Positions 32,781 to 54,630 of a stretch of DNA of 55,375 nt are shown in pieces; positions within the stretch are counted from its first letter, which is position 1, and every line of letters starts with the position of its first letter. Location: positions 1-55,375 of the forward strand of contig CAZPAH010000004.1 of the NCBI GenBank assembly GCA_964584495.1, in the 5' to 3' direction. The position numbers and the translations under genes were made by a program. The notes under the pieces were generated by a model. It did not search any database. It had not been told where the DNA came from and saw nothing but the letters and a program-made list of their open reading frames with translations. The stretch comes from an uncultured bacterium. GTDB lineage: Bacteria; Krumholzibacteriota; Krumholzibacteriia; Krumholzibacteriales; Krumholzibacteriaceae.

Positions 32781-32786
32781 ATACTT

Positions 32787-37965: not shown

Positions 37966-38006
37966 TCCTATGCATGGGACGATTCATCAAACAAGGAGGA
38001 CTCGGG

Positions 38007-39196: not shown

Positions 39197-39913
39197 TCAG
39201 ATGAATTTTTCCCTTTTCTGGAGGTTGAGAAGACCGTAGAGAAGGGCGATGACCGTTCCGACGGCGAGATATATCCTGTTCGTCATCACCGTCTTGGCGA
39301 ACACGGCCTCGTTTTCCGGCGTTATGAACGGATTGATGAAGAGGTCCCACTTGCTGTTCTCGACGAAATCGCTCAGGAACATCAGCCCGACGCCGATGAT
39401 CACCATCACGACTGCCGTCCCGGTGCCGTCGCGTATAAGTGTCGAGAGGAGAAAGCAGATGCTTCCCAAAAAGAAGATCGGGAACATCAGGTGGTAGACC
39501 ACCTTGAATACCGGCACGGAGACCAGGATCACAGAGCTGAGAAGCGCCAGGGCCAGAAGTATCACGAAGACGAGCACCCATATGAGAAACATCCTGCCGA
39601 CCCAGACCTTGTACCTGTAGTTCGGGATCCCGAACAGTATCTCGATCATCCTGCTGTCCACGTCGTTCTGTATGCCGAACGCCATCGGGTAGAAGACAAG
39701 CAGTATCCCGGGCAGCACCAGGATGCCGAAGACCTGGGCCACCGACGGATCGGAATCCGAGCTGAAGAAGAATATCAGCGTGATCAGCAGGTAGAAGATG
39801 AACGCCGCGATCAGAAAGTAGATGAACTTGTTCGCGAAGATGATCTTCAGGTTGTACCTGGAATAGGTTGCCGTCAGATCTACGAGATTTTTTATCCTAT
39901 TGACGTACCTCAT
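39197..39913 (-). CDS. ABC-2-type (type V) permease-like membrane protein
   Basis: About 6 TMs; 'D.DSRMIEILFGIP.YR.KVW' recalls the ABC-2 coupling region; overlaps the end of the RND-ATPase gene. Confidence 0.65.
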   Translation of the reverse strand: MRYVNRIKNLVDLTATYSRYNLKIIFANKFIYFLIAAFIFYLLITLIFFFSSDSDPSVAQVFGILVLPGILLVFYPMAFGIQNDVDSRMIEILFGIPNYRYKVWVGRMFLIWVLVFVILLALALLSSVILVSVPVFKVVYHLMFPIFFLGSICFLLSTLIRDGTGTAVVMVIIGVGLMFLSDFVENSKWDLFINPFITPENEAVFAKTVMTNRIYLAVGTVIALLYGLLNLQKREKFI

Positions 39914-42900
39914 GGTCCTTCTTTCTCAGCATCCACAGGTAGGCATCCTCCAGCGTCGGATTTATCTCCGCCGCGTCGGCGGCGGGGCGCTCCCGGGAAA
40001 GGCACCTTACCCTGATCTTCTCGCCGTCACGCATATGGTGAACGACCAGCATCGTCTTTCTGACCGTCTCGAGATCCTTGGGCTCGATGTTGAACTGCCA
40101 TACATGGCCTCTCGCCGTCTCGGTCATCTTGGCCGGATCGTCGCAGTAGAGCAGCCTCCCCCGGTCGAGAATCGCCACCCGGTTGCAGGAGCTGTAGATA
40201 TCCTCGATGATATGCGTGGAAAAGATCACGACCCTCTCCCTGCTCAGCTCGACGAGGAGGTTCCTGAACCTTATCCTCTCGCGCGGATCGAGGCCGGCGG
40301 TCGGTTCGTCCACGACCAGTATCCTCGGCAGGTGAAGGAGTATCTGCGCGATACCGACCCTCTGCTTCATTCCCCCCGAGAAAGAGCCTATGGTCTTGTC
40401 CCTGTGCTCCTCGATATGGACCGCCTCGAGAACGTAATTGACCATCTTCTCGCGGCGAGGCCTATCGGTCAGCCCTTTCAGTATGCCCTGGTAGTTGAGG
40501 AACTCCCATGCGGTCATGTTCTCGTATGTGCCGAATTCCTGCGGCAGGTAGCCGATGAGTCCCTGGAGCTCCTCCCTTTTCTCGTTCACGTCGATGCCGT
40601 TGATCTGGATCTTCCCGTAGCTCTGGTCGAAGATGCCGCAGATGATGCGCATGAGGGTCGTCTTGCCGGCCCCGTTGGGACCCAGCAGGCCGAACATCCC
40701 TTTCCCGATCTGGAGCGTCACGCCGTCGAGGGCCTTGAACGGGACCTTTTTCCGTCCGATCATCGGGATCATCATGACGAATCTGTAGAAAGCCTTTCTC
40801 AGGCCGGAGAATCTGCCCGAAATCCTCGCTATATTCACCTTGTCGCGGTGGATACGGTTGGAGGTCGTGTAGATCACCAGCGCCGTGTACCAGAGGGCGG
40901 CGATAAGGATCACGAGGGCCGTGTCATGCCACCTGAGATAGAAGAACAGCAGGTTTGCCAGGGGCAGTCCCCAGAAGAGGACCGGCCGCACCCGCCCGGC
41001 CCATCTCCCCGGCGACAGTCTGCCACCGCCTGAGAATCGGAACTCGAGGAACTCCCTGACCGGGTTCCAGAGAAAGAGGATATAGAAGAAGACGGCGTGG
41101 GAGAGGACGAATGTCCAGAAGAAGCTGTTCAGGTATAAATATACGAAATAGACGGCGAACGCCAGCAGGGGGACCTGCCAGGCGAATCCTCCGAAATCCG
41201 AGAGGGCGCGGTACGCATGCCCCGATCCGTCCCTGTGCCTCTTGGCGTTTCCCTTGTTCCACTCGCGCGCGAACCTCGAGGGATGATCGAATATCTTGAC
41301 GAGGTTTCGTATCTCGATCGTTATCGGGGCACCCTCTGGGATTATGCTCGAGGCCGCCTGGCGGAGGCTCGACATCACGAACCATGTAGCCCCCGGAATG
41401 GAGAAGAGGAGCGCGGAGAGGAAGGCGAGCTTCCAGATATTGCTGTCTACGCGGGTGAAGATGAGGTAGCAGCCGGCGGTGAAGAGGATCATGTGGGCGA
41501 TCTTGATCCTTATGTCGAGCCGGCGCATCCAGGAAAGGGCCGCCTCCAGCCCCGAGTAGACGACCGGTATGAATATCAGCGTGAAGAGGGTGCTCAGGGA
41601 GAGACCGCCGATAACGGTGATCGCGAACGGGGCTCCCATGATCGAGACATCCTCGGTCTTTCCCATCGCGAGCGGTATCATCGCGATTATCGTCGTCGCC
41701 GCCGTGATGAGGATCGGCCTCGTCCTGGCTCTCCCCGCCGCCAGCAGCGCCCTGGCGACCCTGTGACCGCGCCGCCTCAGTATCATCGAGTAGTCTATCA
41801 GGATGATCCCGTTGTTCACCACCACGCCGAGCAGTATGACAAACCCGGTCAGCGTATAGAGGTTGATGATCGAGGTCCGGGTGAATATCAGCATCCAGAA
41901 CGATCCGATCGCCGCGAGCGGGACTGTGAACATCATCACCACCGGCGTCGTCAGCGATTCGAAGACCGAAGCGAGGATCATGTAGATCAGTATGAAGGCG
42001 GCTACGATGAGAAAGGTGTACTCTCCGTACTCGTTCTCTTCGTGCACCACCTCCACAGCGACGCCCGAGGGGATCACAAGGGCCGCCACGAGCTGATCGA
42101 CCTCGGCCCTGGCCGATTCGAGAAGATCCTTCGAGCTGTTCACCTCGTCGGAGAACCGGTAGGTGACCTCGATCTGCTTCTCCTGGTTGACCCGGTTTAT
42201 CGAGGGCAGGCCGTGCGAGTATATTATCCTCGAAAGCCGCTGGAGCTCGATCGATCCTGTGTTTCCCCCCTGTATCGACAGCCTTTGAAGATCCTCGATC
42301 CTGCGCTGCTCCTGGTTCATCTTCCTGATCACGATATCGTACTCGTCTGTCCCCTGCCTGTAGGTGAGGTTCGTCGAGAACTCGTTGGGAAACGTTCTGA
42401 GCTCCGATCCTATCGCCGAAAGCGGGATGTCGTAGTAGCTCATGAGGTCGGTGTCGAAATGCAGGTGAATCTCGGGGCGGTCATCGGAGACGTTCATGGA
42501 AGCCGACGATACCGAGCTCAGGTTTTCCAGGTGATACTTGATATCGTCGCCGAAATCCCTCATCACCTCGAAGTTGCTGCCTATGATCACGACCTTCTCC
42601 TGCTGGACGCCGATCCCGAACATCCTCATCATCGCCCTCTCCATGCCCATCCCGCCGCTCCTTCCGTACCGGGTGCTGGCCTGCGGCGGATCGAAGCTCA
42701 CGTCGGCGGTCCTGTAGTCCTCGAAGCGTTTCCTCACGTCCTCCTTGATCTCGTTGAACGAACGGTTATCGATCTCCCTGTAATTATCCTTCAGGGTGAT
42801 CGTGATCATCGCCTCGTCCTCGTAGATTCTGCTTAGCATGTCCATCTTCTCGGGGATCGACTCGAACCTCGACTCCAGGTCGGTCACCGTCGCGTCGGTC

Positions 42901-44621
42901 GTCTCGAGGGACGATCCCTTGGGCATCGACACGTATATCGTTATCGATGTCGCCTTGGACTCCTTGCTTACGTTGAGGCTTAGGCCGAGGCAGATTATGA
43001 TGCTGGCGAAGAATACTATGATGGTTCCTATTATCGTCCTTGCCGGGTAGCGGAGGCACGATTTGAGGAGAACCGTGTAGATCTCGATTATCCGGTTGTT
43101 CCCCGAGACCGGCTGGAAGTTGGCCGAATCGCGCGCGCTGCGCCGCTTCAGGAAGAAATGAGTGACCATCGGAACGAGAAGCAGCGCCACGGCGAGGGAG
43201 ACAAGCAGGGTCGATATGATCGACACGCCGACGTGCTTTCCCACGAGCTTGATCTCGAAGCGCGACGAGAAGATGAATGGGAGGAAGACGGTGATCGTCG
43301 TCGCCGTGGCCGCGAAGATCGAACGCCAGACCTCTTTCACCCCCTCTATGACGGCCGTGTCGGGGTCCCTTCCGAGGGAGACGAGACGGTAGATATTCTC
43401 GAGAACGACTACGCTGTTGTCGAGCAGCATCCCCACGGCGAGGGCCATCCCGATCAGGGTGAGGCTGTTTATCGTTATCCCCGCGGCGTAGAAGAAGTTG
43501 AAGGCGGTGAAGACCGAGATGGGGATGGCGAGGGCTATGATCAGGACGAGCCTCAGGTTCCTCAGGAAGACCCATAGGATAACCACCGCGAGGAGCCCCC
43601 CGATCAGCGCGAGCTTGATGATCAGGTCGATGTTCTTCTCCATGATCTCCGAGATGTCGTTCTGGACGATTATCTCGATGTCCCTCGACCTGAACTCCCC
43701 GTTCAGCCGGTCGACCACCTTTCTCGCCCTGTGAGACAGGTCTATCATGTTGACCTGCGATTCCCTGACGAGGGATACCGTCACCGCGTCCTTCCCGTTC
43801 ACCCTGCTTATCGAGGTCTGCTCCTTCACCCCGAAATAGATCTCGGCCACGTCCCTTAAAAGGACCGGCCCCGTGGGATTGACGGTGATATTCTCGATCT
43901 CGCTTATATCGGCGTACTCGGAGACGACGTTCACGAAGTACTGCCTCCCCGACTCGTCGATCTGCCCGGCGAACGTGTTGCTCTCCCCGTTCCTCCTTAT
44001 CAGACCGGCGACGGTGGAGGGGGTTATCCCGTAAGCCTCGCATACGGCGTCGTCGAGGATGATCTCGACCGATTTCTCCCGGCCTCCGGAGATCTCGAGG
44101 TTGGCGACGCCGTCGATGCTCTCGAGCTCCCGCCGGATCTCGTTGTCGACTATGTTTCTCACCCTGTCGAGCCCGCCGCCGCCCCGGACCTGGAGGTCCA
44201 TGAACTTGTTGCTCACCTTCTCGGTGTCGATATTCCGCACCGCTAGGAAATATTCGTCCGGAAGCGTCGGCCTGACGGCGGCGATCTTCTGCTGGAGCTT
44301 GAGGTAGGCGTACTTGATGCTGATGTTCTGGTTGTAGTAGACCGTTATCATGCACCTGCCGGGCGAGGCGAACGATTCGATCCTGTCTATATCCTCGAGG
44401 GTGCCGATCGCGGTTTCCAGCGGGAGCACCGCTTCCCTCTCGACGTGCTCTGGATCGATGTCCTGGCTCGAGACCGCGTAGACGATGAGGAAGGGGAGCT
44501 CGGCGTTGGGCAGCAGCTCCACGGGGAGGTTCCTGTACGAGATGATCCCCAGCATCGTCAGCGCCGTGAAAAGCATGCTGATGAGGGTCTTGCGGCCTAT
44601 GATCGGGTTGCTCGTTTTCAT
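39897..44621 (-). CDS. RND permease (AcrB/MdtBC-like) fused to extra TM helices and a C-terminal ABC ATPase domain
   Basis: RND: 'ELLPN...P', 'GMLLDNSVVVLEN', 'R.RPILIT', 'VIGGL'. NBD: GPNGAGKT, YLPQEF, FSGGM, ILVVDEP, AGLDP, STH. Confidence 0.9.
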   Translation of the reverse strand: MKTSNPIIGRKTLISMLFTALTMLGIISYRNLPVELLPNAELPFLIVYAVSSQDIDPEHVEREAVLPLETAIGTLEDIDRIESFASPGRCMITVYYNQNISIKYAYLKLQQKIAAVRPTLPDEYFLAVRNIDTEKVSNKFMDLQVRGGGGLDRVRNIVDNEIRRELESIDGVANLEISGGREKSVEIILDDAVCEAYGITPSTVAGLIRRNGESNTFAGQIDESGRQYFVNVVSEYADISEIENITVNPTGPVLLRDVAEIYFGVKEQTSISRVNGKDAVTVSLVRESQVNMIDLSHRARKVVDRLNGEFRSRDIEIIVQNDISEIMEKNIDLIIKLALIGGLLAVVILWVFLRNLRLVLIIALAIPISVFTAFNFFYAAGITINSLTLIGMALAVGMLLDNSVVVLENIYRLVSLGRDPDTAVIEGVKEVWRSIFAATATTITVFLPFIFSSRFEIKLVGKHVGVSIISTLLVSLAVALLLVPMVTHFFLKRRSARDSANFQPVSGNNRIIEIYTVLLKSCLRYPARTIIGTIIVFFASIIICLGLSLNVSKESKATSITIYVSMPKGSSLETTDATVTDLESRFESIPEKMDMLSRIYEDEAMITITLKDNYREIDNRSFNEIKEDVRKRFEDYRTADVSFDPPQASTRYGRSGGMGMERAMMRMFGIGVQQEKVVIIGSNFEVMRDFGDDIKYHLENLSSVSSASMNVSDDRPEIHLHFDTDLMSYYDIPLSAIGSELRTFPNEFSTNLTYRQGTDEYDIVIRKMNQEQRRIEDLQRLSIQGGNTGSIELQRLSRIIYSHGLPSINRVNQEKQIEVTYRFSDEVNSSKDLLESARAEVDQLVAALVIPSGVAVEVVHEENEYGEYTFLIVAAFILIYMILASVFESLTTPVVMMFTVPLAAIGSFWMLIFTRTSIINLYTLTGFVILLGVVVNNGIILIDYSMILRRRGHRVARALLAAGRARTRPILITAATTIIAMIPLAMGKTEDVSIMGAPFAITVIGGLSLSTLFTLIFIPVVYSGLEAALSWMRRLDIRIKIAHMILFTAGCYLIFTRVDSNIWKLAFLSALLFSIPGATWFVMSSLRQAASSIIPEGAPITIEIRNLVKIFDHPSRFAREWNKGNAKRHRDGSGHAYRALSDFGGFAWQVPLLAFAVYFVYLYLNSFFWTFVLSHAVFFYILFLWNPVREFLEFRFSGGGRLSPGRWAGRVRPVLFWGLPLANLLFFYLRWHDTALVILIAALWYTALVIYTTSNRIHRDKVNIARISGRFSGLRKAFYRFVMMIPMIGRKKVPFKALDGVTLQIGKGMFGLLGPNGAGKTTLMRIICGIFDQSYGKIQINGIDVNEKREELQGLIGYLPQEFGTYENMTAWEFLNYQGILKGLTDRPRREKMVNYVLEAVHIEEHRDKTIGSFSGGMKQRVGIAQILLHLPRILVVDEPTAGLDPRERIRFRNLLVELSRERVVIFSTHIIEDIYSSCNRVAILDRGRLLYCDDPAKMTETARGHVWQFNIEPKDLETVRKTMLVVHHMRDGEKIRVRCLSRERPAADAAEINPTLEDAYLWMLRKKDHEVRQ

Positions 44622-47600
44622 CTGGCCCGGTCCAGGACGGAGAAGACGCAGGGGATCACGAAAAGGGTAAGCGTCGTCGAGGTGATCAGTCCTCCGATGA
44701 CGGCCAGGGCCATGGGCGCCCTCAGGGCCGCCCCCTCACCGAAGCCGAAGGTGAGGGGAAGAAGGGCGAGTATCGTGGTGGCGCTCGTCATGATGATCGG
44801 GCGTATCCTTCTCTGCCCGGCCTCGATGATCGCGTTCCTGCGCTCCAATCCTTCCTTCTTGAGTTTGTTTATGGCGTCGACGAGAATGATCGAATCGTTG
44901 ACGGCGATCCCGACGAGCATGACCATCCCGATGAGGGCCATTATATTGAAGGTCTTTCCAAGGATGAAAAATATCAGCACCGCGCCGACGCCGGCCATGG
45001 GGATGGTGAGTATGATCGCGAAGGGGTGCACCAGCGATTCGAACTGCGACGCCAGCACCATGTAGACCAGTATTATGGAAAGGATCAGCGCGAAGCGCAG
45101 GTCCTTGAACTCGGCCTGCCTCTTCTCCTCCTCGCCGGTGATGACGAGCCTGTAGCCCGCGGGGACGTCGACCGCCCTGAGCCTGTTCTTGATATCGGCT
45201 ATCAGGTGATCGAACGGCCTCCCCTTCCTCTGATGCGCCGTCACTATCCCGGTCCGGACCTGATTCCTCCTGTTGATTTGCTTCGGCGCGTTGCCGTACC
45301 GGACGGCGGCCACCTGGCTCAGCCGGACCATGCTCCCGTTTCCTTCCAGGAGTATATCCTCGATGCCGGAGAGGGACGTCTTGGGCACCTCGATGATGAT
45401 CTCTTTCTTCTCTCCCTCGTGCTCCCAGTACCCCGCCTCCTTCCCCTGAAGGATATCCTTGAGTTGAGAGCTGATATCGTTCACGCCTATGTCGTACATG
45501 CCGGCCCTCAGGCGGTCGATGACGATATCGACCTCGGGCCGTCCCTCCTCCAGCGTCGTCTCGACGTTGAACAGGTCGCCGATCTCGAGCAGCTTCGCCT
45601 TCACGCCGGCCGTGATCTCCTCGAGCGTCCCAAGGTCCTCGCCCATCACCTCGACCACGACAGGCGCCGATTCGGTTCCCAGGGTGGTCATCAGGGCCGT
45701 CTGGTCCTGTATGAACTGCTCCTCGACGTCGGGGATCTCGCCGATCGCACCTCCGAGCCCCTGGATCACGAGCTCCGATGATATTTGGCGGCCTCCGCCC
45801 AGCCGTATCTTGATCGCCGCCGTGTTCTCGTCCTCGAACACCTCCCCCTCGTAATCGCTCATCGATGTGGCGGGACCGATCCTGCTGTATATCGATTCAA
45901 CGTCCTTGCCGAGGAGTTCGTGGATTATATCCTCGATCCCGACGACCGTGTTCTCCGTCCTGTTCAGCTCCGTCCCCTCGGGAAGCGTGATCTGGACCGT
46001 GAACTCGTTCATGTCGGTCTTGGGTATGAACTCGCTCCCGACTACCGGAACGAGAAGCACCGCGATCGCTATGAGCGCGGCCGCCCCCAGGATGACCGTC
46101 CAGCGCCTCCCCAGCACATTGCCCAGGAGGGATCCGTACCAGCCGAACTTGATCGAACGCGTCTTCGCCGACGGAGGCCTCCTTTTTAGGAAGCGGCTGG
46201 CGAGCATCGGGATGACCAGTATCGCGACTACGAGGGAGGACAGCAGAGAGAAGGCCACCGTCCAGGCCTGGTCCTTGAACAGCTCTCCCGAGGCGCCGTG
46301 AAGGTAGACGATGGGGAGGAAGACGATGATAGTCGTTATCGTCGAGGCCGTGATCGCCCCGCCGACCTGGGATGCGCCCTCTATCGCCGCTTCCTTGATC
46401 GGCGTGCCGGCCTCGATATTGCGGATGATATTCTCCATGACGACGATCGCGTTATCGACCAGCATCCCGGCCCCCAGGGCGAGTCCCCCCAGCGTCATTA
46501 TGTTTAGCGTGAGCCCGTTGAAATACATCAGGTTGAAGGTGGCCACGACGGAGATCGGTATGGCGACGCTCACGATCGCCGTCGTCCCGATCCTCCTGAG
46601 AAACACGTAGAGCACCAGTATCGCCAGCAGGATCCCTATGAGGGCCGTCTGCTTGACCTCGTCGACCGCGGCGGTGATGAACCTTCCCTGGTCCTGTATC
46701 ACGGTCAGCTCGTAGCCGGGGAGGGCGTCGCCCAGCTTCTTCAATTCCTCGTGGAGGCGGTTCGACGCCTGCACCGTGTTGAACTTCATCTCCTTGTAGA
46801 TGCTGAGGCTGAGGCAGCGTTCGCCGTTGAGCCTCACTATGCTTTTCGGCTCCTTGTTCCTGTACTCGATCTTCGAGACGTCCTTGAGGAATACCGGCAC
46901 CTTCTCCTGCGTTTCGCCGTCGGCCGCCTGCTGGGGCTGCCCGGCCCCTTCGCCCTCCCGCCAAGTGATGATGATGTTCTCTATGTCCTCGAGCGTCTCG
47001 AGCTCGCCGACCCCCTTGACGAGGTATTCCAGACCCATCTCGGTAATCGAGCCCCCGGAGACGTTCTGATTGTAGCTCTCGATCCTCGCGGCGAGGGCGT
47101 CGAGGGTGAGGCCGTACGCCTCTAGGAGGTAGTTGTCGGTCTCGATGACGACCTCTTTCTCCTCCTGGCCCGAGATCTCGACCCCCGCTATCCCCTCGAT
47201 CCTTGTGAGCTCGTTGCGTATGTAGTTCTCGGCCACCTTTCTCAGCTCGTCCATGTCGTTGATCTCGGGGTTCGACAGGCCGACGAGCATGATCGGCTCG
47301 GCGTTGGGGTCGTGCTGGGTGATAGTGATCTCGTCGATATCGGGATTGTTCTGCCCGATATCGGCGGCGCCCTTCTGAAGGTCGAGAAACGCCTCGTCCA
47401 TGTCGGTGTTCCATTTATACTCGACGGTCGTGCGGGCCGCGCCCACGCGGATCGTCGTGTAGACGCCGATCACGCCCTTCTTCGTCGATGCCATCGGCTC
47501 GATCAGCCCGATGAACTGCTTCTCGATCTCCTCGGGGGGCAGCTCGCCGGCGGTGAGCTCGATGAAGATCCGCGGGTTGTTGAGATCGGGAAAGAGATCA

Positions 47601-48753: not shown

Positions 48754-48787
48754 GTCGGATTCCTCTCTTCCTGTTTCCCGAAGGACC

Positions 48788-50248
48788 CTATTCAAGAACG
48801 GAACGGTTGTTTTCGAAATCCCAGAGGGACTGTATCTTCATATCCAGCAGGCCGAGCCTGTATTGTATCAGGGAGGAGACCTCGTTGAGCTTCTTCTGGG
48901 AAAGCTGGACCTGGAACTGGTTGAGCTCCATGCTCGAGAGGTCTCCGTTGCGGTACTTCTCGAGGTTGATATCGTACGTGAGCTGTGAATTCCTCACGTT
49001 CTGCTTGGCGATCTCTATCTGCGTGACCTGGTTCTCCAGGTTCCTGTATGCGCTTCTTATCGATATCAGGATATCGTCCTTCTCCTCCTCCAGCGAGAGC
49101 TCCTGGGATTTCAGCGAGGCGCGGGCCGCCTCGAGGAGCGATTTCTTCTCGCCCCAGTCCCACAGCGGCACCTCGAGCGTCAGCGAGAACTGCTGGTTCT
49201 TGTCGGGGGAGTCGTAGATGCTCGAGAACCTTTCATCGGTTCCCGACGTGCCGTAGGCGAGGTTGATGTTTCCCCAGAACTCGTTCGTCGCCCCGGTGGT
49301 TATCACGTTGTTGCGGGCGTTCTCGATCTGTATCTCCTGCTGCCTTATCTCCATCCTGTTTTTCAGGCCGTGCGAGATAGCCTGCTGGAGGTCTACCTCC
49401 ACGTAGTTGAACGAGATATCGGCCGTGATATCGATCTCCTCGTCGAGGGGGATGCCGAGAAGCTTCTTGAACCGGTCGAGCGCCGATTCGAGGGTAACCT
49501 TCTGGTTCTGCAGGGACGACTGCGCGCTGGAGAGGTTCAGCTCGGCCTGGTAGAGCTCGTCCAGGCTCTCCAGGCCAGCGTCGGCCTTGTTCTTGCTGAT
49601 ATCGTAGCCCACCTTCGTGTTCTCGTACTCGTCGTTGGCGACCTGGACCTGCATCTTCGCTTCGTAGACGTTGTAGAACTGCTGCATAACGAGCTGCTCT
49701 ATCGACAGCTTCTGAATCGCGTAGTTCAGCTGGTTGTTCTCGAGATCGAGCTCGAGGTTCTCCAGCTCCATCTTCCTCTTGTTGTAGGTGAATATCGGCT
49801 GGTTGAAGCTGATGTAGAGGTTGTTCATGTACGTCTTGCTCGACTGGTCCTGGAACTCGCTGTACGAGTCCCGGTAGGAGAAGTTGTTGATCAGCGAAAG
49901 GGTCCCGTCGGTCCAGGTGATCGGCTGGCTGACCGTGAACTCGCCGCCCGACTCTTTCGTCTCCTGCGTGTACCAGGTGGAGAAGAGGTCGTTGAAGACC
50001 GTGCTGTTGCTGTACGATATCGGCGTGAGGGAGAGGCTGAATTTCGACTTCAGCCTGGCCTTCGCCGCGTTGAGCGATGCCTGGCTCCGTTCCAGGCTCA
50101 ACCTGCTGTGCCTGATGTTTGGGCTCTTGTCCATCGCTATCCGGAGGGATTCCTCGAGGGTGAGCACGCGCTGCGCCGAGGCGCCGTCCGCCTGGAGCAG
50201 CACGGCCGCCAATGCGAGCAAGACGGTGTTTCTTCTCCCGATCTTCAT
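48788..50248 (-). CDS. TolC family outer membrane channel
   Basis: Signal peptide; 'LTLEESL.IA', two helical/beta repeats, 'LEVPLWDWG', 'KYRNG..S..EL'. Confidence 0.9.
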   Translation of the reverse strand: MKIGRRNTVLLALAAVLLQADGASAQRVLTLEESLRIAMDKSPNIRHSRLSLERSQASLNAAKARLKSKFSLSLTPISYSNSTVFNDLFSTWYTQETKESGGEFTVSQPITWTDGTLSLINNFSYRDSYSEFQDQSSKTYMNNLYISFNQPIFTYNKRKMELENLELDLENNQLNYAIQKLSIEQLVMQQFYNVYEAKMQVQVANDEYENTKVGYDISKNKADAGLESLDELYQAELNLSSAQSSLQNQKVTLESALDRFKKLLGIPLDEEIDITADISFNYVEVDLQQAISHGLKNRMEIRQQEIQIENARNNVITTGATNEFWGNINLAYGTSGTDERFSSIYDSPDKNQQFSLTLEVPLWDWGEKKSLLEAARASLKSQELSLEEEKDDILISIRSAYRNLENQVTQIEIAKQNVRNSQLTYDINLEKYRNGDLSSMELNQFQVQLSQKKLNEVSSLIQYRLGLLDMKIQSLWDFENNRSVLE

Positions 50249-50285
50249 TTTTCCTGCGAAACCCGAATCCATAGCAGTTTCCTTC

Positions 50286-53200
50286 CTAGCGTTTCACCCA
50301 TTTTATGGCGTCGGCCACAACGTAGCGGGCCTTCGACTTGTTGTTGATCTCGACCTTCGCCGTGCCCTTCGATATGTAAAAGGAGCCGATGAAGTTCCAT
50401 CCATCCTCGGCGGTGTTCAGGTCGAGCACGGTCTCCTCGATCCCGTCGTCGTGATGGATGAAGAGCGTGTTCGAGCCGAGATCGGAATCGCGATCCCTCC
50501 TGCCGCGGAAGGGGGACCGGACCTTGCCCACGTGAAAATATATGTCGTAGTTGCCGCTCTCCGCCAGCTCCGCGGTCCAGGCGGCTTTTCTTTTTCCGTC
50601 CCCGTGGCTCGTGAAATGGGCCGAGCGGATGTACCTGCCGTAGAATTTCGAATCGGTCGTCGCCAGCCAGGTCCCGGTGCTGGTCCAGCCCACGTACCTA
50701 TCGTTGATGTCGGGCTTCGGGACGAGGCTCGGAATCATCCTCTTCAGCAGGCTCTTGGGCGACCCCTTGGCGAACGTGAATCCGGGATCCTCGTCGTCCG
50801 TGACGGTCTCTCCCGGCTCGATAAGCCTGACCGGCGCGTCCAGCACGCGCTCCCCGTCGAACGGCACGGCCCTCTTCTCCAGCTCGAACTCCTCGAAGGT
50901 TCTCGATATGTTGGAGGGGATGTTCATCGAGACCAGCGTGTTTATCTCCACCGAGCCGGGCTGGTAATCGAGAACGGCCCCTATCTCCTTCGTCTCGCCG
51001 GCCGCGAAGTACACGAGCCGCTCGAGGTTGTCCTCCTCGCGGGGGCCGCCGAAAGGTCCTCTGAAGCGCCCGCCCCGCATCCCCCTCTGGCGGGTGAAGG
51101 TGAGCTTCACCAGCCCGTCGACATCCTCCGGGTTGGATATCTTGAAGCGGACCTGGTAGCGTTCCCTGTCCTTGTCCAGGACCTTGTAGTTGCGGTATTC
51201 CCCGTCGAGGAAGCCGGGCAGCTTCCTGTCGGAGTACCAGCTCTCTATATACGGGGCGAAATCGAATCCGAAATCCTTCTCGAGGCCCGAAACGAAAGCC
51301 TCGCCGGTGGTCGCGCGGAACATGGTCTCCTTCAGCCAATTCTCCATGAACGATCCGAAGCGCTCCGGACCGACCCTGTTCTCGAGCAGGCGGAAGAGGA
51401 AATCGCCCTTCATCTTGAGGACGAAATTGGCCATGTTGCGTTTCTCGGGGTCGGAGAGGATCTCGCTGAGGTTCTCCTGCGTAAGGGCGAGGTTGCCCCT
51501 TTCCTCGGGCGTCATTCCCGTGAAGTAACGCCTGAAGACCGAGGGGGGATTATCCAGCCGGCCCGCCCAGAACGATTCGAGCGCCATGTTCAGGACCGGC
51601 CATCTCTCCGATTCGATGTGGTGTATGAAGGTGTAGAAGTTGGGGAATACGTTGTAGCTCGTCGTGAACGCGAACGGGTCCTCCTCGCGGAACGACGTTC
51701 TGCCGAAGTCCTGCGTGAGGGTCGAGCCGATGAAGTCGTTCAGCATGTTGCACTCATTCTCCAGTGGCGAGATCTCCTCGTTCGTGCGGTCGGTGCGCCT
51801 CTTCATCCTCTTCTGCATGATTCTGAAATCCACCCCGCCCAGCGATGCCCCCATCTCGGGGAGCAGCACGATCTCCGGCTGCACCGATTCCTGCCCGACG
51901 GACCAGAGGTGCCTGTAGCTGAAGAAATTGATCGGTACCTCGACAAGCGTCAGCCTGGTGTAGGGGTAGGTGAGGCCGAGGGTGTTCTCGTAGTCCTGGA
52001 GCGCCTCCCCGATGAGGGGGGAGAGGGTGTCGCCGATCTCGCTGAAGTACCCGGAGAAGAAATCGTGGCCCTTCTTGTAGTATATGGCGTACTCGACCGA
52101 GTCGACCGGTATCGAGATCCGCTCGTAATCGGCCGCGGCAAGGCTGAGGGAGGGCAGGGGCATCTCATGCTCGAAGACGAACCTGCCGCCGCCCCCGCTC
52201 GTTATCTTTCCCTGCGAGACGGCGGTCAGGCCGGCCGGCAGCGTCACATCGAGGGTGAACCTGGTGAAATGCTGGGCGTGGATCTCGGGGCGCTCCGAGC
52301 TGAAGCCGGCCCCGGCGACGGGGTACCAGTCGGATTCCGGCGTGAGCAGCAGGAAATCGGGCTGGATGAACGCGTAACGCTTCTTCACCTTCGGTATGTT
52401 CGCCCTCGGCATCGAGAAAGGCTTTTCCCTCGTCTCCTCGTCTATGTCGGGATAGCAGGCCTCCTCGTCGATCCTGCCGTGGTAGGCGACGTCGAACGAA
52501 TCGACCGCACCGGGGGCGAGTGGAACCGACGGCTCGATGACGAGCAGGTGGATATCCCGCCTGTAGGGGACGGGTCCGCCCGCCCCGCTTACGCCGTCGA
52601 CGGCCAGGCCCGGGTTGAGGGTGAATATGTAGCGGGCCGCGGGAGAGGAGGAGTCGTTCATGACACGGTACCTGGCCGTGGCGGCTATCGTCCTGCCCCT
52701 GTGCTCTATAGAGATGTCGCAGGTGAGGGGGGTTATGCGCTCCCCGCCCACGACCTGGTTGTTGGCCTCTATGATCCTCGCGCGTAGCGACCTTCCGCCG
52801 AGGATGTCGCCGATGTACCTGTATCCCAGTAGGAGCGCGGCGGCGAGGAAGACGACCGACAGGACCTTCGCCGACGAGGTGATCCCCCTCGACTGCGGAA
52901 GGCGTTTTATCATCACCACCGTCATGCATATGAATGAGAGGCCGAGCAGGAGGTATATCCCCCTGTGCTCGAGCAGGGACGGAAGATCGCCGAACCCGCA
53001 GAAGGTCGAGCGCTCGAGCGGGAGGGTGAAGGCCATGTAGTCGAAGAGGGAGTGAAACTTCCTCGCCAGGTAGAAGAGGGTCGTCCCTATGTAGCCGAGA
53101 AGGACGATGAAGGTTACGGCCTGGTTGCGTATAAGGACCATGAAGAGGAAGGAGAGGCCGAGTATGAATACCAGCGTCGAGAGGCTTATCACCAGCGGGT

Positions 53201-53645
53201 AGAGAAGGTACGAGAGCAGGTCCACCGGGACCTTCGCCGCGAAGATATTGAAGACCGCGGTGACGGCGAGGACGGCGATGTTGAGTATCGCGAAGACGGT
53301 GAGGATGCCGGCGGTTTTTCCCGCGACGTACTCGCCGTTGGTCATCGAGCGCATGTAGACGACCTCGGTCGTGTCGAGCTTCCTGTCCCGCTTGAGGAAG
53401 TCGGAGGCGAGGAAGATCGCTATCACCGCCTGCACGCTGTTCAGTATGAGAATCGTTATGTACGGTATCGTCGCCGGGATCGCCCGGACCGCCCACGGTC
53501 CCCAGCCGACCTCGGAGAGCAGACCGAAGTTCATGAATCCGAGGAAAACGATCGACATTATCGACAGGACACGGAAGAACCAGCTTCTAAAGAGGGTCTT
53601 TATCTCGATCCGGGCGACGGCCCAAACATTGTACAGTGATATCAT
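50286..53645 (-). CDS. ABC-2 permease fused to a degenerate M1-aminopeptidase-like domain and C-terminal golvesin/Xly-CBD-like domain
   Basis: N-terminal 6-7 TMs ('FLKRDRKLDTTEV.Y.RSM.N..Y..GK'); M1-like 'YPY..LTLVEVP' and 'KG..LF..L...VG.E.F' but no HEXXH; tail 'A.W...L...G.YDIY...GW..IG.F...VVADAIKW'. Confidence 0.72.
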   Translation of the reverse strand: MISLYNVWAVARIEIKTLFRSWFFRVLSIMSIVFLGFMNFGLLSEVGWGPWAVRAIPATIPYITILILNSVQAVIAIFLASDFLKRDRKLDTTEVVYMRSMTNGEYVAGKTAGILTVFAILNIAVLAVTAVFNIFAAKVPVDLLSYLLYPLVISLSTLVFILGLSFLFMVLIRNQAVTFIVLLGYIGTTLFYLARKFHSLFDYMAFTLPLERSTFCGFGDLPSLLEHRGIYLLLGLSFICMTVVMIKRLPQSRGITSSAKVLSVVFLAAALLLGYRYIGDILGGRSLRARIIEANNQVVGGERITPLTCDISIEHRGRTIAATARYRVMNDSSSPAARYIFTLNPGLAVDGVSGAGGPVPYRRDIHLLVIEPSVPLAPGAVDSFDVAYHGRIDEEACYPDIDEETREKPFSMPRANIPKVKKRYAFIQPDFLLLTPESDWYPVAGAGFSSERPEIHAQHFTRFTLDVTLPAGLTAVSQGKITSGGGGRFVFEHEMPLPSLSLAAADYERISIPVDSVEYAIYYKKGHDFFSGYFSEIGDTLSPLIGEALQDYENTLGLTYPYTRLTLVEVPINFFSYRHLWSVGQESVQPEIVLLPEMGASLGGVDFRIMQKRMKRRTDRTNEEISPLENECNMLNDFIGSTLTQDFGRTSFREEDPFAFTTSYNVFPNFYTFIHHIESERWPVLNMALESFWAGRLDNPPSVFRRYFTGMTPEERGNLALTQENLSEILSDPEKRNMANFVLKMKGDFLFRLLENRVGPERFGSFMENWLKETMFRATTGEAFVSGLEKDFGFDFAPYIESWYSDRKLPGFLDGEYRNYKVLDKDRERYQVRFKISNPEDVDGLVKLTFTRQRGMRGGRFRGPFGGPREEDNLERLVYFAAGETKEIGAVLDYQPGSVEINTLVSMNIPSNISRTFEEFELEKRAVPFDGERVLDAPVRLIEPGETVTDDEDPGFTFAKGSPKSLLKRMIPSLVPKPDINDRYVGWTSTGTWLATTDSKFYGRYIRSAHFTSHGDGKRKAAWTAELAESGNYDIYFHVGKVRSPFRGRRDRDSDLGSNTLFIHHDDGIEETVLDLNTAEDGWNFIGSFYISKGTAKVEINNKSKARYVVADAIKWVKR

Positions 53646-54527
53646 TCAACTCACCTCGCGGTGTTCCATGAAGTAGACGTAGGCGTGCTCCAGGTTCGGC
53701 TCTATCTCCTCGGCGGGGTAGCCGTCGAGCTTGTCGCCGACGACGTGGACATCCCAGCCGTTCTCGGAGGGTATCGTCGATATCACCGAGTACTTCGACT
53801 TGATATCCTCCAGCTCGCTGTCGAGCGCGACGATCTTCCAGGCGTGCCCGCGCGCCTTGTCGAGCAGTCCGTCGGGAGAGCCCCGGAAGATGAGCCGCCC
53901 CTTGTCCAGAAGCGCCATGTTGTGGCAGGTGCTCGATATATCGCCGACGATGTGCGTCGATAGGAGGATTATAACGTCCCGCTGTCCGAGGTCGGCCAGG
54001 AGGTTCCTGAACCTTATCCTCTCCTCGGGATCGAGCCCCGTCGTCGGCTCGTCGACCACTATTATCTTCGGATCGCCTATGAGCGCCTGGGCGATGCCGA
54101 GCCTCCTCTTCATGCCGCCGGAGAGCTTGTTCGCCATCCTGTCCCTCACGTCGAAGAGCCCGACCTGCTCGAGCATCGCGTCGACGGCCCTGGTCCTCTC
54201 CTTCGGGTTCTTCAGTCCCGCCAGCGATGCCACGTAATCGAGAAACTCCCAGGTCTTAAGCTTCGAGAAGAACCTGAACTCCTGGGGGAGGTACCCGAGC
54301 ATCGATCTTATCTCCCGGCGGTTTTTTCGAAGGTCGAGATCGCCGATCTTCACCGTCCCCGAAGAGGGCTCCATCAGCGTGACGAGAATCCTCATCAGGG
54401 TCGTCTTTCCGGCACCGTTGGGGCCGAGAAGGCCGAACATCCCGCTGCCGATCACGAGATCCAGGTCCTCGAGGGCGCGGTTACCGTTCTTGTAGACCAT
54501 GCTCAGCTTTTCGATCTTAATTTCCAT
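53646..54527 (-). CDS. ABC transporter ATP-binding protein (ABC-2/DrrA-like)
   Basis: GPNGAGKT, YLPQEF, LSGGM, IIVVDEP, TGLDP, STH; stop abuts the next start. Confidence 0.96.
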   Translation of the reverse strand: MEIKIEKLSMVYKNGNRALEDLDLVIGSGMFGLLGPNGAGKTTLMRILVTLMEPSSGTVKIGDLDLRKNRREIRSMLGYLPQEFRFFSKLKTWEFLDYVASLAGLKNPKERTRAVDAMLEQVGLFDVRDRMANKLSGGMKRRLGIAQALIGDPKIIVVDEPTTGLDPEERIRFRNLLADLGQRDVIILLSTHIVGDISSTCHNMALLDKGRLIFRGSPDGLLDKARGHAWKIVALDSELEDIKSKYSVISTIPSENGWDVHVVGDKLDGYPAEEIEPNLEHAYVYFMEHREVS

Positions 54528-54564
54528 GGGACCCCTTCGTAATGAGCCTCTCCTTACAGTGTTA

Positions 54565-54591: not shown

Positions 54592-54630
54592 GTCCGCCCG
54601 AACCGGCCGCCCGTTACAGCAATCTGCCCG

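What the first reader, a model, noticed from the sequence alone, without database searches (positions are those of the whole stretch)
39197..54527. Seven-gene operon that physically merges a tripartite RND pump with a type V ABC transporter
Seen in sequence: ABC ATPase, permease-M1-like-golvesin-like fusion, TolC, MFP, RND, RND-ATPase fusion and a second ABC permease, all on one strand. Most junctions abut or overlap (TGA-ATG, TGATG, ATGA, 17 nt); the others are short gaps. Established: RND pumps (AcrAB-TolC, MdtABC) are proton-driven, and TolC-linked ABC systems (MacAB, T1SS) do not include an RND subunit. Inference: the parts list of 2 NBDs, 2 ABC-2 TMDs, 2 RNDs, 1 MFP and 1 TolC fits a single envelope-spanning machine. 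In it, a heterodimeric ABC module would be covalently tethered to a heteromeric RND trimer, coupling ATP-driven extraction or delivery of a substrate (lipid, peptide or glycoconjugate) to RND-TolC export. I do not know of a characterised system with this architecture.
Basis: partly seen in the sequence, partly recalled or inferred. Interest (0 to 1): 0.92.

Follow-up and report, generated by a model that had tools for sequence, protein, structure and literature searches.

The report
Conserved RND pump fused to ABC transporter
A seven-gene operon encodes an outer-membrane-spanning RND efflux pump in which one pump subunit is permanently fused to the ATPase of an ABC transporter; the same arrangement recurs across many phyla of the Bacteroidota-related (FCB) bacteria, and I found no published description of it.

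Summary
Seven minus-strand genes (39197-54527) encode an ABC ATPase, a permease fused to an M1-like and a Golvesin_C domain, a TolC-like channel, a lipoprotein adaptor, an RND, a 1574-aa RND-ABC ATPase fusion and a small polytopic protein.

The fusion is not an assembly artefact. All 120 listed database homologues (55-68% identity, about 1570 aa) carry both domains. It reads as one ORF in 62 species-level loci and on a 3-Mb contig. Gene order g1-g6 is kept in 48 of 49 loci, and g7 follows in 63 of 64.

- The 260-aa "linker" has six membrane helices. Four are inserted between strand 1 and strand 2 of the ATPase domain.
- This linker occurs only in the RND-fused context.
- The M1-like domain is periplasmic and lacks HExxH/GxMEN in 120 of 120 homologues, so it is a pseudo-peptidase.
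- g7 is only weakly recognisable as an ABC-2 permease.
- The atypical RND proton-relay motifs (TM4 D-N, TM10 N) also occur in stand-alone RND pumps. They therefore do not argue for an ATP-driven RND.

Most likely this is one supercomplex in which an ABC-2 module feeds or loads a proton-driven RND-adaptor-channel exporter. Substrate, stoichiometry and coupling are untested. Seven literature searches found no description.

The parts
53646..54527 (-). g1: soluble ABC ATPase (293 aa) of the DrrA/GldA/NosF-like (ABC-2-type) group, with a C-terminal extra domain.
   Evidence: ABC_tran 2.7e-30. Best NCBIfam matches are drrA (190 bits) and GldA (173 bits), both below their cutoffs. Walker A, Q-loop, signature, Walker B-Glu and H-switch are all conserved in orthologues. 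It is 43% identical to the ATPase part of g6.
52752..53645 (-). g2 residues 1-298: membrane domain. It has an N-terminal amphipathic helix, six TM helices of ABC-2 (NosY-like) type and a seventh TM/stalk helix that puts the rest of the protein in the periplasm.
   Evidence: AF2 model with pLDDT 86 and pTM 0.82 gives helices 4-20, 22-43, 59-89, 103-137, 143-172, 175-196, 221-245 and 253-298. Hydropathy peaks agree. The window protein matches ABC2_membrane_2 only at E=0.77. Some homologues carry PF12679/PF12730 and JGI's 'NosY-type permease' name.
50766..52751 (-). g2 residues 299-960: periplasmic M1-aminopeptidase-like fold without the catalytic motifs (a pseudo-peptidase).
   Evidence: Foldseek against PDB finds IRAP, ERAP1, PepN and other M1 enzymes at E=1e-16 to 1e-18 over about 650 columns. 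Peptidase_M1 matches only below threshold. HExxH and GxMEN are each found in 0 of 120 homologues.
50295..50687 (-). g2 residues 987-1117: C-terminal Golvesin_C beta-sandwich domain. It is periplasmic and I infer that it is a binding module.
   Evidence: PF25275, 5.3e-14 and 52.9 bits against a cutoff of 31.6. It is present on every listed homologue. The AF2 model is all-beta here.
48788..50272 (-). g3: TolC-family outer-membrane factor (494 aa) with a signal peptide.
   Evidence: OEP 2.1e-50 in 3 stretches. TolC/NodT subfamily matches fall below cutoff. The N-terminal signal-like sequence ends ...ASAQ.
47704..48795 (-). g4: RND-type periplasmic adaptor (MFP), a lipoprotein. The true start is probably downstream of the listed TTG.
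   Evidence: TIGR01730 RND_mfp at 196.1 bits against a cutoff of 94.9. HlyD_D23 8.7e-23. Lipobox ...IASC with an invariant Cys31.
44618..47707 (-). g5: full-length RND permease (1029 aa), the unfused paralogue.
   Evidence: ACR_tran 1.4e-215 covering profile positions 1-1020 of 1021. RND_permease_2 at 624 bits. TM4 'VDN' is in 60 of 61 orthologues and TM10 'N[D/N/S]' in all.
41532..44621 (-). g6 residues 1-1030: full-length RND permease, 28.5% identical to g5.
   Evidence: ACR_tran 2.1e-167 on residues 7-1023. The best solved relative is MdtB, 9lyq. TM4 has Asp in 62 of 63 orthologues and Asn in all 63; TM10 'NN' is invariant in 63. Orthologue beats paralogue in 56 of 56 loci.
41337..41531 (-). 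g6 residues 1031-1095: two extra TM helices (TM13-14). They follow RND TM12 after about 14 residues and return the chain to the cytoplasm.
   Evidence: AF2 helices 1037-1057 and 1061-1086, with pLDDT 90-96. Hydropathy and Lys/Arg-rich cytoplasmic loops support the topology. Sequence conservation is weak but length is constant.
41217..41336 (-). g6 residues 1096-1135: first beta-strand of the ATPase domain ('ITIEIRNLVKIF', including the A-loop aromatic residue) plus a basic helix. This is the best-conserved part of the linker.
   Evidence: AF2 strand 1102-1111. It aligns to g1 residues 2-17 in hhalign, a short match with E=0.034. Conservation profile.
40836..41216 (-). g6 residues 1136-1262: four long hydrophobic helices (TM15-18) inserted between strand 1 and strand 2 of the ATPase domain.
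   Evidence: AF2 helices 1146-1163, 1167-1197, 1204-1231 and 1234-1259. Hydropathy and the positive-inside pattern agree. There is no profile similarity to g7 or to the g2 N-terminus. The linker is found only in RND-fused proteins: 100 hits among 1.84 billion representatives.
39897..40835 (-). g6 residues 1263-1574: the rest of the ABC ATPase domain plus a C-terminal extra domain, with all catalytic motifs intact.
   Evidence: ABC_tran 2.1e-28. GldA 179 bits and drrA 175 bits. Motifs are invariant in the 47-sequence alignment. Foldseek finds TM_1403 (4yer), NosF (7osf, 7o14), LptB and ABCA ATPase domains at E=1e-15 to 1e-20.
39197..39913 (-). g7: 238-aa polytopic membrane protein from a large unnamed family. 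It is probably a divergent ABC-2 permease that partners the fused ATPase.
   Evidence: The window protein has no Pfam or NCBIfam hit. It has 5046 homologues, all unnamed. ABC2_membrane_3 matches 8 of 41 homologues (best 9e-5) and ABC2_membrane_2 matches 5 of 41. hhalign to the g2 membrane domain is collinear but weak, E=0.075. Six or so hydropathy peaks. It follows g6 in 63 of 64 loci.
54528..54630 (-). 103-nt intergenic region upstream of g1, the presumed promoter and leader of the operon.
   Evidence: It is the only sizeable gap on this strand before g1. No sigma-70 consensus site and no Rfam match were found here, so this is position-based inference only.

Best explanation
The seven genes encode one envelope-spanning export machine with two modules.

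Module 1 is an ordinary tripartite RND system: two RND paralogues (g5 and the RND part of g6), a lipoprotein adaptor (g4) and a TolC-like channel (g3). It is presumably proton-driven through the conserved TM4 Asp.

Module 2 is an ABC-2 (type V-like) transporter. It is built from two catalytically competent ATPases (g1 and the C-terminus of g6) and two permeases. One permease is g2, which carries a large periplasmic pseudo-M1 and beta-sandwich domain. The other is g7.

The fusion holds module 2 directly against the membrane domain of an RND protomer. The connection runs from RND TM12 through about 14 residues, two TM helices, about 16 residues and ATPase strand 1, then four inserted TM helices and the rest of the ATPase.

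Inferred mechanism: ATP hydrolysis by the ABC module moves an amphipathic or lipid-like substrate from the cytoplasm or inner leaflet to the periplasmic face. There the RND porter domain captures it and expels it through the adaptor and channel. The periplasmic domain of g2 may help with the hand-over.

Shown here: the parts, their topology, intact motifs, and deep conservation of the fusion and the gene order.

Inferred only: physical assembly, stoichiometry, direction of transport, and the substrate.
For: - Domain content of all seven genes.
- Fusion conserved in all 120 listed database proteins and as a continuous ORF in 62 loci. The same array appears with independent gene calls on a 3.0-Mb contig and in Gemmatimonadota and another lineage.
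- Gene order g1-g6 kept in 48 of 49 loci and g7 in 63 of 64. Flanking genes are not conserved outside Krumholzibacteriia, so the unit is exactly these seven genes.
- Both ATPases have invariant Walker A, Q-loop, signature, Walker B-Glu and H-switch.
- The AF2 model of g6 residues 1021-1574 (pLDDT 83.6) shows 2 TM helices, a strand, 4 TM helices and then the ATPase. Hydropathy and the positive-inside pattern give a consistent all-cytoplasmic ATPase.
- The ATPase fold is closest to ABC-2-type ATPases TM_1403 and NosF.
- g2 has seven TM helices followed by a periplasmic M1-like fold.
- The linker is found only in the RND-fused context.
- The RND parts are full length and keep the same TM4/TM10/TM11 residues as stand-alone RND pumps of their subfamily.
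- From established knowledge (mine, not tested here): RND pumps take substrates from the periplasm or outer leaflet, and single-component inner-membrane pumps cooperate with AcrAB-TolC in two-step efflux.
Against: - There is no experimental or structural evidence of a complex, and multimer modelling was not available.
- g7's identity as an ABC-2 permease is weak.
- g5 and the RND part of g6 share only 28.5% identity, so a heterotrimer is not assured.
- The Gemmatimonadota variant with two g2 paralogues fits two separate homodimeric ABC transporters as well as it fits one heterodimer.
- The closest structural relatives of the ATPase include NosF, whose transporter does periplasmic mechanical work rather than transmembrane transport.
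- Nothing in the neighbourhood points to a substrate.
Confidence: 0.5

Rival explanations
1. ATP-powered periplasmic loader (mechanotransmission). As proposed for NosDFY, FtsEX or MacB, the ABC module moves nothing across the inner membrane. Instead it uses ATP to drive conformational changes in g2's periplasmic pseudo-M1 and Golvesin_C domain. That domain captures a periplasmic or outer-leaflet ligand (peptide, glycan or lipid-linked) and loads it into the adjacent RND pump.
For: - The g2 membrane domain is NosY-like in some homologues' annotation.
- NosF is among the best structural matches of the fused ATPase.
- g2 carries an 820-aa periplasmic domain with a peptide-binding-type fold but no catalytic residues. 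That is typical of a binding or scaffold role.
- RND pumps load from the periplasmic side (established knowledge).
Against: - No ligand or partner is identifiable.
- The second permease, g7, has no periplasmic domain.
- Similarity to Nos proteins is only at subfamily level, and no NosD or NosL equivalents are present.
Confidence: 0.25
2. ATP-driven or ATP-gated RND. Dimerisation of the ATPase domains is transmitted through TM13-18 into the RND membrane domain. It either replaces the proton-motive force or acts as an on/off gate, giving a primary-active RND pump.
For: - Very short connectors join RND TM12, the extra TM helices and the ATPase.
- Both RND paralogues lack the AcrB D408 and K940 equivalents.
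- All 60 best solved RND chains have DD in TM4 and K in TM10.
Against: - The same TM4 'DN' and TM10 'NN' motifs occur in a stand-alone RND of Acetoanaerobium. A related pattern occurs in a Brevibacillus plasmid RND with only a MarR regulator and an adaptor next to it. The motif is therefore a subfamily trait, not a consequence of the fusion.
- TM4 Asp and the TM11 Arg are kept.
- Dedicated ABC-type permeases (g2, g7) are always present, so the ATPases have their own membrane partners.
- The TM13-18 sequences are poorly conserved, which is unexpected for a force-transmitting element.
Confidence: 0.1
3. Two functionally independent transporters that are merely co-encoded and tethered. For example, a homodimeric g1/g2 transporter and a g6 C-terminus/g7 transporter would work separately. 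The fusion would serve only co-localisation, co-expression or stoichiometric control, with no substrate hand-over.
For: - Pairs are arranged NBD-then-permease (g1-g2 and g6-g7) with tight junctions.
- The Gemmatimonadota variant has two g2 paralogues.
- Neither coupling nor a shared substrate has been shown.
Against: - The covalent fusion and strict seven-gene order persist across several phyla at 45-68% protein identity.
- The linker never occurs outside the fusion.
- Only one adaptor and one channel gene accompany both modules.
Confidence: 0.1
4. Artefact: the long ORF results from a frameshift, a misassembly, or a chimeric contig joining an RND gene to an ABC gene.
For: The window is a single assembled contig of unknown read support. 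Three of 80 related loci show a frame change or a stop inside g6.
Against: - All 120 listed database proteins are about 1570 aa with both domains.
- 62 independent loci have a continuous ORF.
- A 3.0-Mb contig with independent gene calls shows a 1575-aa product.
- The junction region is itself a conserved, family-specific sequence.
Confidence: 0.01

Closest known systems
MdtABC-TolC (and MuxABC-OpmB): tripartite RND pumps with two adjacent RND paralogue genes forming a heterotrimer
   Same: Two adjacent RND permease genes share one adaptor and an outer-membrane factor. MdtB is the best solved relative of the RND part of g6. Both RNDs are full length.
   Different: - One paralogue here carries six extra TM helices and an ABC ATPase.
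- The paralogues share only 28.5% identity.
- TM4 and TM10 have D-N and N instead of DD and K.
- The operon also carries ABC components and its own channel gene.
- Heterotrimer formation was not tested.
NosDFY(L) and GldAFG: ABC-2 (type V-like) systems with NosY/GldF-type permeases and large periplasmic partners
   Same: The ATPases fall in the same broad group: GldA and DrrA are the best NCBIfam matches and NosF and TM_1403 are top structural matches. Some g2 homologues are recognised as NosY-type ABC-2 permeases. A large periplasmic domain is attached to the transporter.
   Different: - Scores are far below the GldA and DrrA equivalog cutoffs (173-190 bits against 312-403).
- The periplasmic part is an M1-like pseudo-peptidase, not NosD or GldG.
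- One ATPase is fused to an RND.
- An adaptor and a channel are part of the unit.
MacAB-TolC and type I secretion systems: ABC-driven tripartite exporters
   Same: ATP-hydrolysing ABC components are encoded together with an adaptor and a TolC-family channel.
   Different: - The MacB architecture (N-terminal ATPase, four TM helices, its own periplasmic domain) is absent.
- The adaptor here matches the RND adaptor model best, while MacA and HlyD models match far below cutoff.
- Two full RND permeases are present, which those systems lack. The 2021 review lists ABC, RND and MFS as alternative inner-membrane components.
YbhGFSR of E. coli: an ABC-2 exporter encoded with an HlyD-like adaptor (from my own knowledge)
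   Same: ABC-2-type ATPase and permeases are associated with a membrane-fusion protein.
   Different: It has no RND subunit, no fused periplasmic M1-like domain and no dedicated channel gene. This comparison is from memory and was not tested here.
SecYEG-SecA with SecDF, and two-step drug efflux in which inner-membrane single-component pumps feed AcrAB-TolC (from my own knowledge)
   Same: In functional logic, an ATP-driven inner-membrane step is followed by a proton-driven RND-superfamily step on the periplasmic side.
   Different: Those partners are separate proteins without covalent linkage, and SecDF does not use an adaptor or channel. The analogy is mechanistic only.
M1 zinc aminopeptidases (PepN, ERAP1, IRAP)
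   Same: The periplasmic domain of g2 has the M1 fold, covering the N-terminal beta domain and the thermolysin-like domain.
   Different: HExxH and GxMEN are absent in 120 of 120 homologues. There is no C-terminal helical domain. It is fused to a seven-TM ABC-2 membrane domain.

Membership tests
Tripartite RND efflux system (RND + adaptor + outer-membrane factor) | RND permease with 12 TM helices and two large periplasmic loops (full-length ACR_tran) | tested here: met
   g5 matches ACR_tran positions 1-1020 of 1021 at 1.4e-215. g6 matches positions 5-1018 at 2.1e-167.
Tripartite RND efflux system (RND + adaptor + outer-membrane factor) | Periplasmic adaptor of the RND_mfp type | tested here: met
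   g4 matches TIGR01730 at 196.1 bits against a cutoff of 94.9. Lipobox Cys31 is invariant.
Tripartite RND efflux system (RND + adaptor + outer-membrane factor) | TolC-family outer-membrane factor | tested here: met
   g3 matches OEP at 171.6 bits against a cutoff of 22, in three stretches.
Tripartite RND efflux system (RND + adaptor + outer-membrane factor) | AcrB-type proton relay (TM4 Asp-Asp, TM10 Lys, TM11 Arg) | tested here: inconclusive
   TM4 is Asp-Asn and TM10 is Asn in both paralogues, while the TM11 Arg is kept. The same pattern occurs in stand-alone RND pumps. It differs from all 60 best solved structures.
Tripartite RND efflux system (RND + adaptor + outer-membrane factor) | Proton-driven export of a substrate across the outer membrane | not testable with these tools
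   This needs transport assays.
MdtBC-type heteromeric RND | Two adjacent RND paralogue genes sharing one adaptor | tested here: met
   The order g4-g5-g6 is kept in 48 of 49 loci. Orthologue beats paralogue in 56 of 56 loci.
MdtBC-type heteromeric RND | The paralogues assemble into one heterotrimer | not testable with these tools
   No multimer modelling was available. The paralogues share 28.5% identity.
ABC transporter, ABC-2 / type V-like | Two nucleotide-binding domains with intact Walker A, Q-loop, signature, Walker B-Glu and H-switch | tested here: met
   Both g1 and the g6 C-terminus have these motifs, conserved across orthologues.
ABC transporter, ABC-2 / type V-like | ATPase belongs to the DrrA/NosF/GldA-like group | tested here: inconclusive
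   These are the best NCBIfam matches, but at 173-190 bits they fall below cutoffs of 312-403. Structurally the closest are TM_1403, NosF, LptB and ABCA.
ABC transporter, ABC-2 / type V-like | Permeases with the ABC-2 membrane domain (Pfam ABC2_membrane families) | tested here: inconclusive
   - g2 N-terminus: E=0.77 for PF12679 in the window protein, but PF12679/PF12730 appear on several homologues.
- g7: no hit in the window protein. ABC2_membrane_3 matches 8 of 41 homologues, best 9e-5.
- g7 against the g2 N-terminus in hhalign gives E=0.075.
MacB-type (type VII) tripartite ABC exporter | N-terminal ATPase fused to a four-TM FtsX-type permease with its own periplasmic domain | tested here: not met
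   No FtsX or MacB_PCD domain was found on any of the seven proteins. The ATPases are of a different subgroup.
M1 zinc aminopeptidase | M1 fold (beta domain plus thermolysin-like domain) | tested here: met
   Foldseek finds IRAP, ERAP1 and PepN at E about 1e-18 over about 650 columns.
M1 zinc aminopeptidase | HExxH-(18)-E zinc site and GxMEN exopeptidase motif | tested here: not met
   HExxH and GxMEN are each found in 0 of 120 homologues. The Pfam Peptidase_M1 match is below threshold, 17.4 bits against 27.7.

The most novel reading that the evidence does not exclude
This would be a previously undescribed class of hybrid primary/secondary-active envelope exporter, ancient in the FCB superphylum. 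An ABC-2 transporter would be built covalently into an RND trimer through an 18-TM subunit whose ATPase domain carries a four-helix membrane insertion. ATP hydrolysis and the proton-motive force would then act in one complex on one substrate. That substrate could be an envelope lipid, lipopeptide or glycoconjugate rather than a drug.
Probability: 0.45. Interest if true: 0.88.

Novelty: new variant of a known kind. Interest (0 to 1): 0.8.

Why it matters
Tripartite exporters are classified by their inner-membrane engine as ABC, RND or MFS. These engines are treated as alternatives (review read).

A conserved system that joins an ABC engine and an RND engine in one polypeptide would be the first case where the two energy sources are physically combined. 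It would also give a natural model for an open question: how do substrates that start in the cytoplasm or inner leaflet reach RND pumps, which load from the periplasmic side?

The system is abundant. The small permease g7 has more than 5000 homologue clusters. It spans many poorly studied phyla as well as Bacteroidales families that I believe (from my own knowledge, not checked here) include cultured species. It is therefore probably physiologically important and may be experimentally reachable.

Three components are new structural objects in their own right: the membrane insertion inside an ATPase domain, the pseudo-M1 periplasmic domain and the unnamed g7 family.

Tried and rejected
1. Misassembly or frameshift as the origin of the fusion. 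Rejected.
2. 'The fused RND has lost its proton relay and so must be ATP-driven.' Both paralogues have TM4 D-N and TM10 N, and no solved RND shares this. However, control RND pumps without ABC partners have the same or a related pattern (Acetoanaerobium has the same motifs, Brevibacillus pBRLA33 a related one). The argument was dropped.
3. The 260-aa linker as a third ABC permease domain. It has no profile similarity to g7 or to the g2 N-terminus and no Pfam hit. Sequence conservation is weak except for ATPase strand 1. It is better read as a membrane anchor plus an insertion.
4. g2 as an active aminopeptidase. Rejected.
5. Sequence searches of g2 and of a g7 profile against PDB gave nothing meaningful.
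6. Conserved accessory genes beyond the seven. Flanks are conserved only within Krumholzibacteriia, and Pfam hits on neighbours give no functional link.
7. Regulatory RNA, promoter or terminator signals. There are no Rfam hits in the window. Promoter-like and terminator-like sites occur at or below shuffle expectation.
8. Literature. Seven searches for RND-ABC fusions, permease-M1 fusions, Golvesin with ABC and Krumholzibacteriota efflux found nothing relevant. The library does not cover subscription-only papers or TCDB/InterPro.
9. Naming organisms for long-contig homologues through the cluster look-up returned no names.
10. Fold identity of the g2 membrane domain alone.

Full report
**1. What is in the window**

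Seven ORFs lie head to tail on the minus strand between 39197 and 54527. Pfam and NCBIfam identify them as follows.

| Gene | Coordinates | Size | Identification |
|---|---|---|---|
| g1 | 53646-54527 | 293 aa | ABC ATPase (ABC_tran 2.7e-30); nearest named families DrrA and GldA, both below cutoff |
| g2 | 50286-53645 | 1119 aa | Golvesin_C (5.3e-14) plus a sub-threshold Peptidase_M1 match |
| g3 | 48788-50272 | 494 aa | TolC-family outer-membrane factor (OEP 2.1e-50) |
| g4 | 47704-48795 | 363 aa | RND-type adaptor (TIGR01730, 196 bits against a cutoff of 94.9) |
| g5 | 44618-47707 | 1029 aa | full-length RND permease (ACR_tran 1.4e-215) |
| g6 | 39897-44621 | 1574 aa | ACR_tran on residues 7-1023 (2.1e-167) and ABC_tran on residues 1299-1442 (2.1e-28) |
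| g7 | 39197-39913 | 238 aa | polytopic protein with no family match |

g1/g2 abut, g2/g3 have a 13-nt gap, g4/g5 and g5/g6 overlap by a few bases, and g6/g7 overlap by 17 nt. g4 has a lipobox with an invariant Cys31, so its real start is probably downstream of the listed TTG. g3 has a signal peptide. Upstream of g1, an unrelated same-strand ORF ends at 54631 and leaves a 103-nt gap.

**2. Is the fusion real?**

Yes.
- A search of 5.8 billion proteins listed the 120 best homologues at 55-68% identity. All are about 1570 aa, except two longer entries where only about half the query aligns, and all carry both PF00873 and PF00005.
- These come from Krumholzibacteriota (the closest, so the window is from that lineage or a near relative), KSB1, Calditrichota, Latescibacterota, Gemmatimonadota and others.
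- A scan of one genome per species returned 80 loci. They include many Bacteroidales families, Krumholzibacteriia, Chlorobiota and Fibrobacteraceae.
- In 62 of these loci the RND, linker and ATPase form one uninterrupted ORF. Three loci show a frame change or a stop.
- A 3.0-Mb contig with independent gene calls has a 1575-aa product in the same array.

**3. Is the operon a unit?**

tblastn of the seven window proteins against the loci shows the same order and strand everywhere.
- All of g1 to g6 are present in 48 of 49 loci with at least 9.9 kb of upstream sequence. The exception is cut by a contig end.
- g7 follows g6 in 63 of 64 loci.
- Look-ups starting from distant g2 homologues give the same array in a Gemmatimonadota genome and in another lineage.
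- Genes beyond g1 and g7 are conserved only within Krumholzibacteriia.

The unit is therefore exactly these seven genes.

**4. Anatomy of the fused subunit**

The 260 residues between the RND and the recognisable ATPase are not a passive linker. An AlphaFold2 model of residues 1021-1574 was built from a 47-sequence alignment (mean pLDDT 83.6). It shows, in order:
- Two long helices (1037-1057 and 1061-1086).
- A ten-residue beta-strand (1102-1111, 'ITIEIRNLVKIF').
- A basic helix.
- Four long hydrophobic helices (1146-1259).
- The ATPase fold.

The strand aligns with the first strand of g1 ('EIKIEKLSMVY', a short match). It contains the aromatic A-loop position and is the best-conserved part of the linker. 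DSSP assigns a strand only when a residue has a partner, and the only other strands in this fragment belong to the ATPase. I therefore infer that this is strand 1 of the ATPase domain, and that four membrane helices are inserted between strands 1 and 2.

Hydropathy and charge distribution agree with this topology. The cytoplasmic loops hold 10 and 9 Lys/Arg. The three short turns on the other side hold none. g6 therefore has about 18 TM helices.

The connectors are short: about 14 residues from RND TM12 to TM13, and about 16 residues from TM14 to strand 1. The ATPase must therefore sit directly beside the RND membrane domain.

A phmmer search with the linker alone read all 1.84 billion cluster representatives and found only 100 proteins. 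Every full-length hit is an RND fusion of about 1550-1585 aa with the linker at about 1030-1290. The rest look like contig-end fragments, and one 526-aa protein starts at the linker. The linker exists only in this context.

**5. The ABC parts**

Both ATPases keep Walker A, Q-loop, signature, Walker B with its catalytic Glu, and the H-switch. These are invariant across orthologues. The two ATPases are 43% identical to each other. By structure, the fused ATPase is closest to TM_1403, NosF, LptB and ABCA ATPase domains. By sequence, the closest named families are the ABC-2-type DrrA and GldA.

The g2 model (pLDDT 86, pTM 0.82) shows:
- An amphipathic N-terminal helix.
- Six TM helices.
- A seventh TM/stalk helix.
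- An 820-residue domain that must be periplasmic.

Foldseek matches this periplasmic domain to M1 aminopeptidases (IRAP, ERAP1, PepN) at E about 1e-18 over about 650 columns. None of 120 homologues has HExxH or GxMEN, so it is a pseudo-peptidase. It is followed by the Golvesin_C beta-sandwich.

The ABC-2 nature of the g2 membrane domain rests on PF12679/PF12730 hits and 'NosY-type' names on some homologues. The window protein itself scores only E=0.77.

g7 belongs to a family of more than 5000 clusters, all unnamed and without Pfam hits. Scanning 41 members one by one gave ABC2_membrane_3 in 8 (best 9e-5) and ABC2_membrane_2 in 5. A profile-profile comparison with the g2 membrane domain is collinear but weak (E=0.075). 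By eye, its conserved TM2-TM3 loop resembles the ABC-2 'E..T.E....P' loop. Calling g7 an ABC-2 permease is reasonable but not established.

**6. The RND parts**

Both are full length. They share 28.5% identity, and each is closer to its orthologues than to its paralogue in 56 of 56 loci, so the duplication is old.

TM4 reads Asp-Asn and TM10 Asn where AcrB has Asp-Asp and Lys. This is nearly invariant in both paralogues and is not seen in any of the 60 best solved RND chains. I considered whether this meant a lost proton relay.

A control argues against that. The best plasmid-collection relatives of g5 are stand-alone RND pumps. Acetoanaerobium has the same 'VDNS' and 'VNNA' motifs. Brevibacillus pBRLA33 has 'VDFA' and 'VNNA', with only a MarR regulator and an adaptor next to it. 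The pattern is a subfamily trait and says nothing about ATP coupling.

**7. Most likely mechanism**

The evidence shows a fixed, ancient set of parts. It consists of a complete RND-adaptor-channel exporter plus a complete two-ATPase, two-permease ABC-2-like set. One ATPase is welded by short connectors to an RND protomer.

The best-supported reading (about 0.5) is one supercomplex. The ABC module, using ATP, brings a substrate to the periplasmic face of the inner membrane. The RND module, presumably proton-driven, expels it through the adaptor and channel. The periplasmic domain of g2 may assist the hand-over. This fits established knowledge that RND pumps load from the periplasm or outer leaflet.

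The rivals are:
- (a) A NosDFY/FtsEX-like mechanotransmission role, in which ATP drives the periplasmic pseudo-M1 domain to load the RND (about 0.25).
- (b) An ATP-gated or ATP-driven RND (about 0.1, weakened by the control in section 6).
- (c) Tethered but functionally independent transporters (about 0.1).
- (d) An artefact (about 0.01).

Stoichiometry is open. It could be one g1-g2/g6-g7 heterodimer per g5-g5-g6 trimer. It could equally be homodimeric ABC units; the Gemmatimonadota variant with two g2 paralogues is compatible with that. No substrate can be named from the context.

**8. Comparison with known systems and novelty**

The closest known systems are:
- MdtABC-TolC: two RND paralogues.
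- NosDFY and GldAFG: ABC-2 systems with periplasmic partners.
- MacAB-TolC and type I secretion: ABC-driven tripartite systems.
- Functionally, SecA/SecYEG with SecDF, or two-step drug efflux.

None of these joins an ABC ATPase to an RND permease. Seven full-text searches found no description. A comprehensive 2021 review treats ABC, RND and MFS as alternative inner-membrane components. Database product names such as JGI's 'AcrB/ABC-type ... ATPase subunit' show that the fusion has been seen by annotation pipelines but, as far as I could find, not studied.

I rate it a new variant of known kinds. The modules are familiar and their covalent combination is not. Interest is high (0.8), tempered by the complete lack of functional data.

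Noticed in passing
window 14618-16831 (+): A 737-aa ORF fuses a class-V aminotransferase (cysteine desulfurase/selenocysteine lyase-like, residues 4-364) to AIRS/AIRS_C domains (SelD/ThiL/HypE-like, residues 436-732).
   Followed up: no
window 23940-27605 (-): A 1221-aa Peptidase_C25 (gingipain-like) protein has a C-terminal FlgD_ig-like domain. In FCB bacteria such C-terminal domains often mark type IX secretion cargo; that link is from my own knowledge.
   Followed up: no
window 31376-32842 (-) and 33715-34611 (+): Myo-inositol-1-phosphate synthase and an inositol monophosphatase lie close together, which suggests inositol synthesis.
   Followed up: no
L081 6251-13423 (Gemmatimonadota, GCA_042567005.1): This variant of the operon has two tandem g2 paralogues (1138 and 1140 aa) between the ATPase gene and the channel gene. 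It bears on whether the ABC module is a heterodimer or two homodimers.
   Followed up: partly
P0393 (526 aa): This protein starts with Met exactly at the linker and continues through the ATPase. It is either a split (unfused) form or a gene call on a truncated contig.
   Followed up: partly
L032, L078 (frame change) and L046 (in-frame stop) within the g6 orthologue: Three of 80 related loci have a disrupted fusion gene. These could be assembly errors or pseudogenes.
   Followed up: no
window g5 residues 418-419 and 937-938; g6 residues 401-402 and 936-937; L083, L084: This RND subfamily, including stand-alone pumps of Firmicutes, has TM4 Asp-Asn and TM10 Asn instead of the AcrB Asp-Asp and Lys relay. 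None of the 60 best solved RND chains shares this. The proton pathway of this subfamily appears structurally uncharacterised.
   Followed up: partly
window 37938-38585 (+) and 37166-37846 (+): A DUF2884 protein and a PglD-like hexapeptide acetyltransferase lie just downstream of the operon on the opposite strand. They are not conserved next to the operon outside Krumholzibacteriia.
   Followed up: partly
window 39197-39913 (-) and its homologues: The g7 family has more than 5000 clusters at 90% identity. Every listed member is 'hypothetical' and has no Pfam domain, so it is a large unnamed membrane-protein family.
   Followed up: partly
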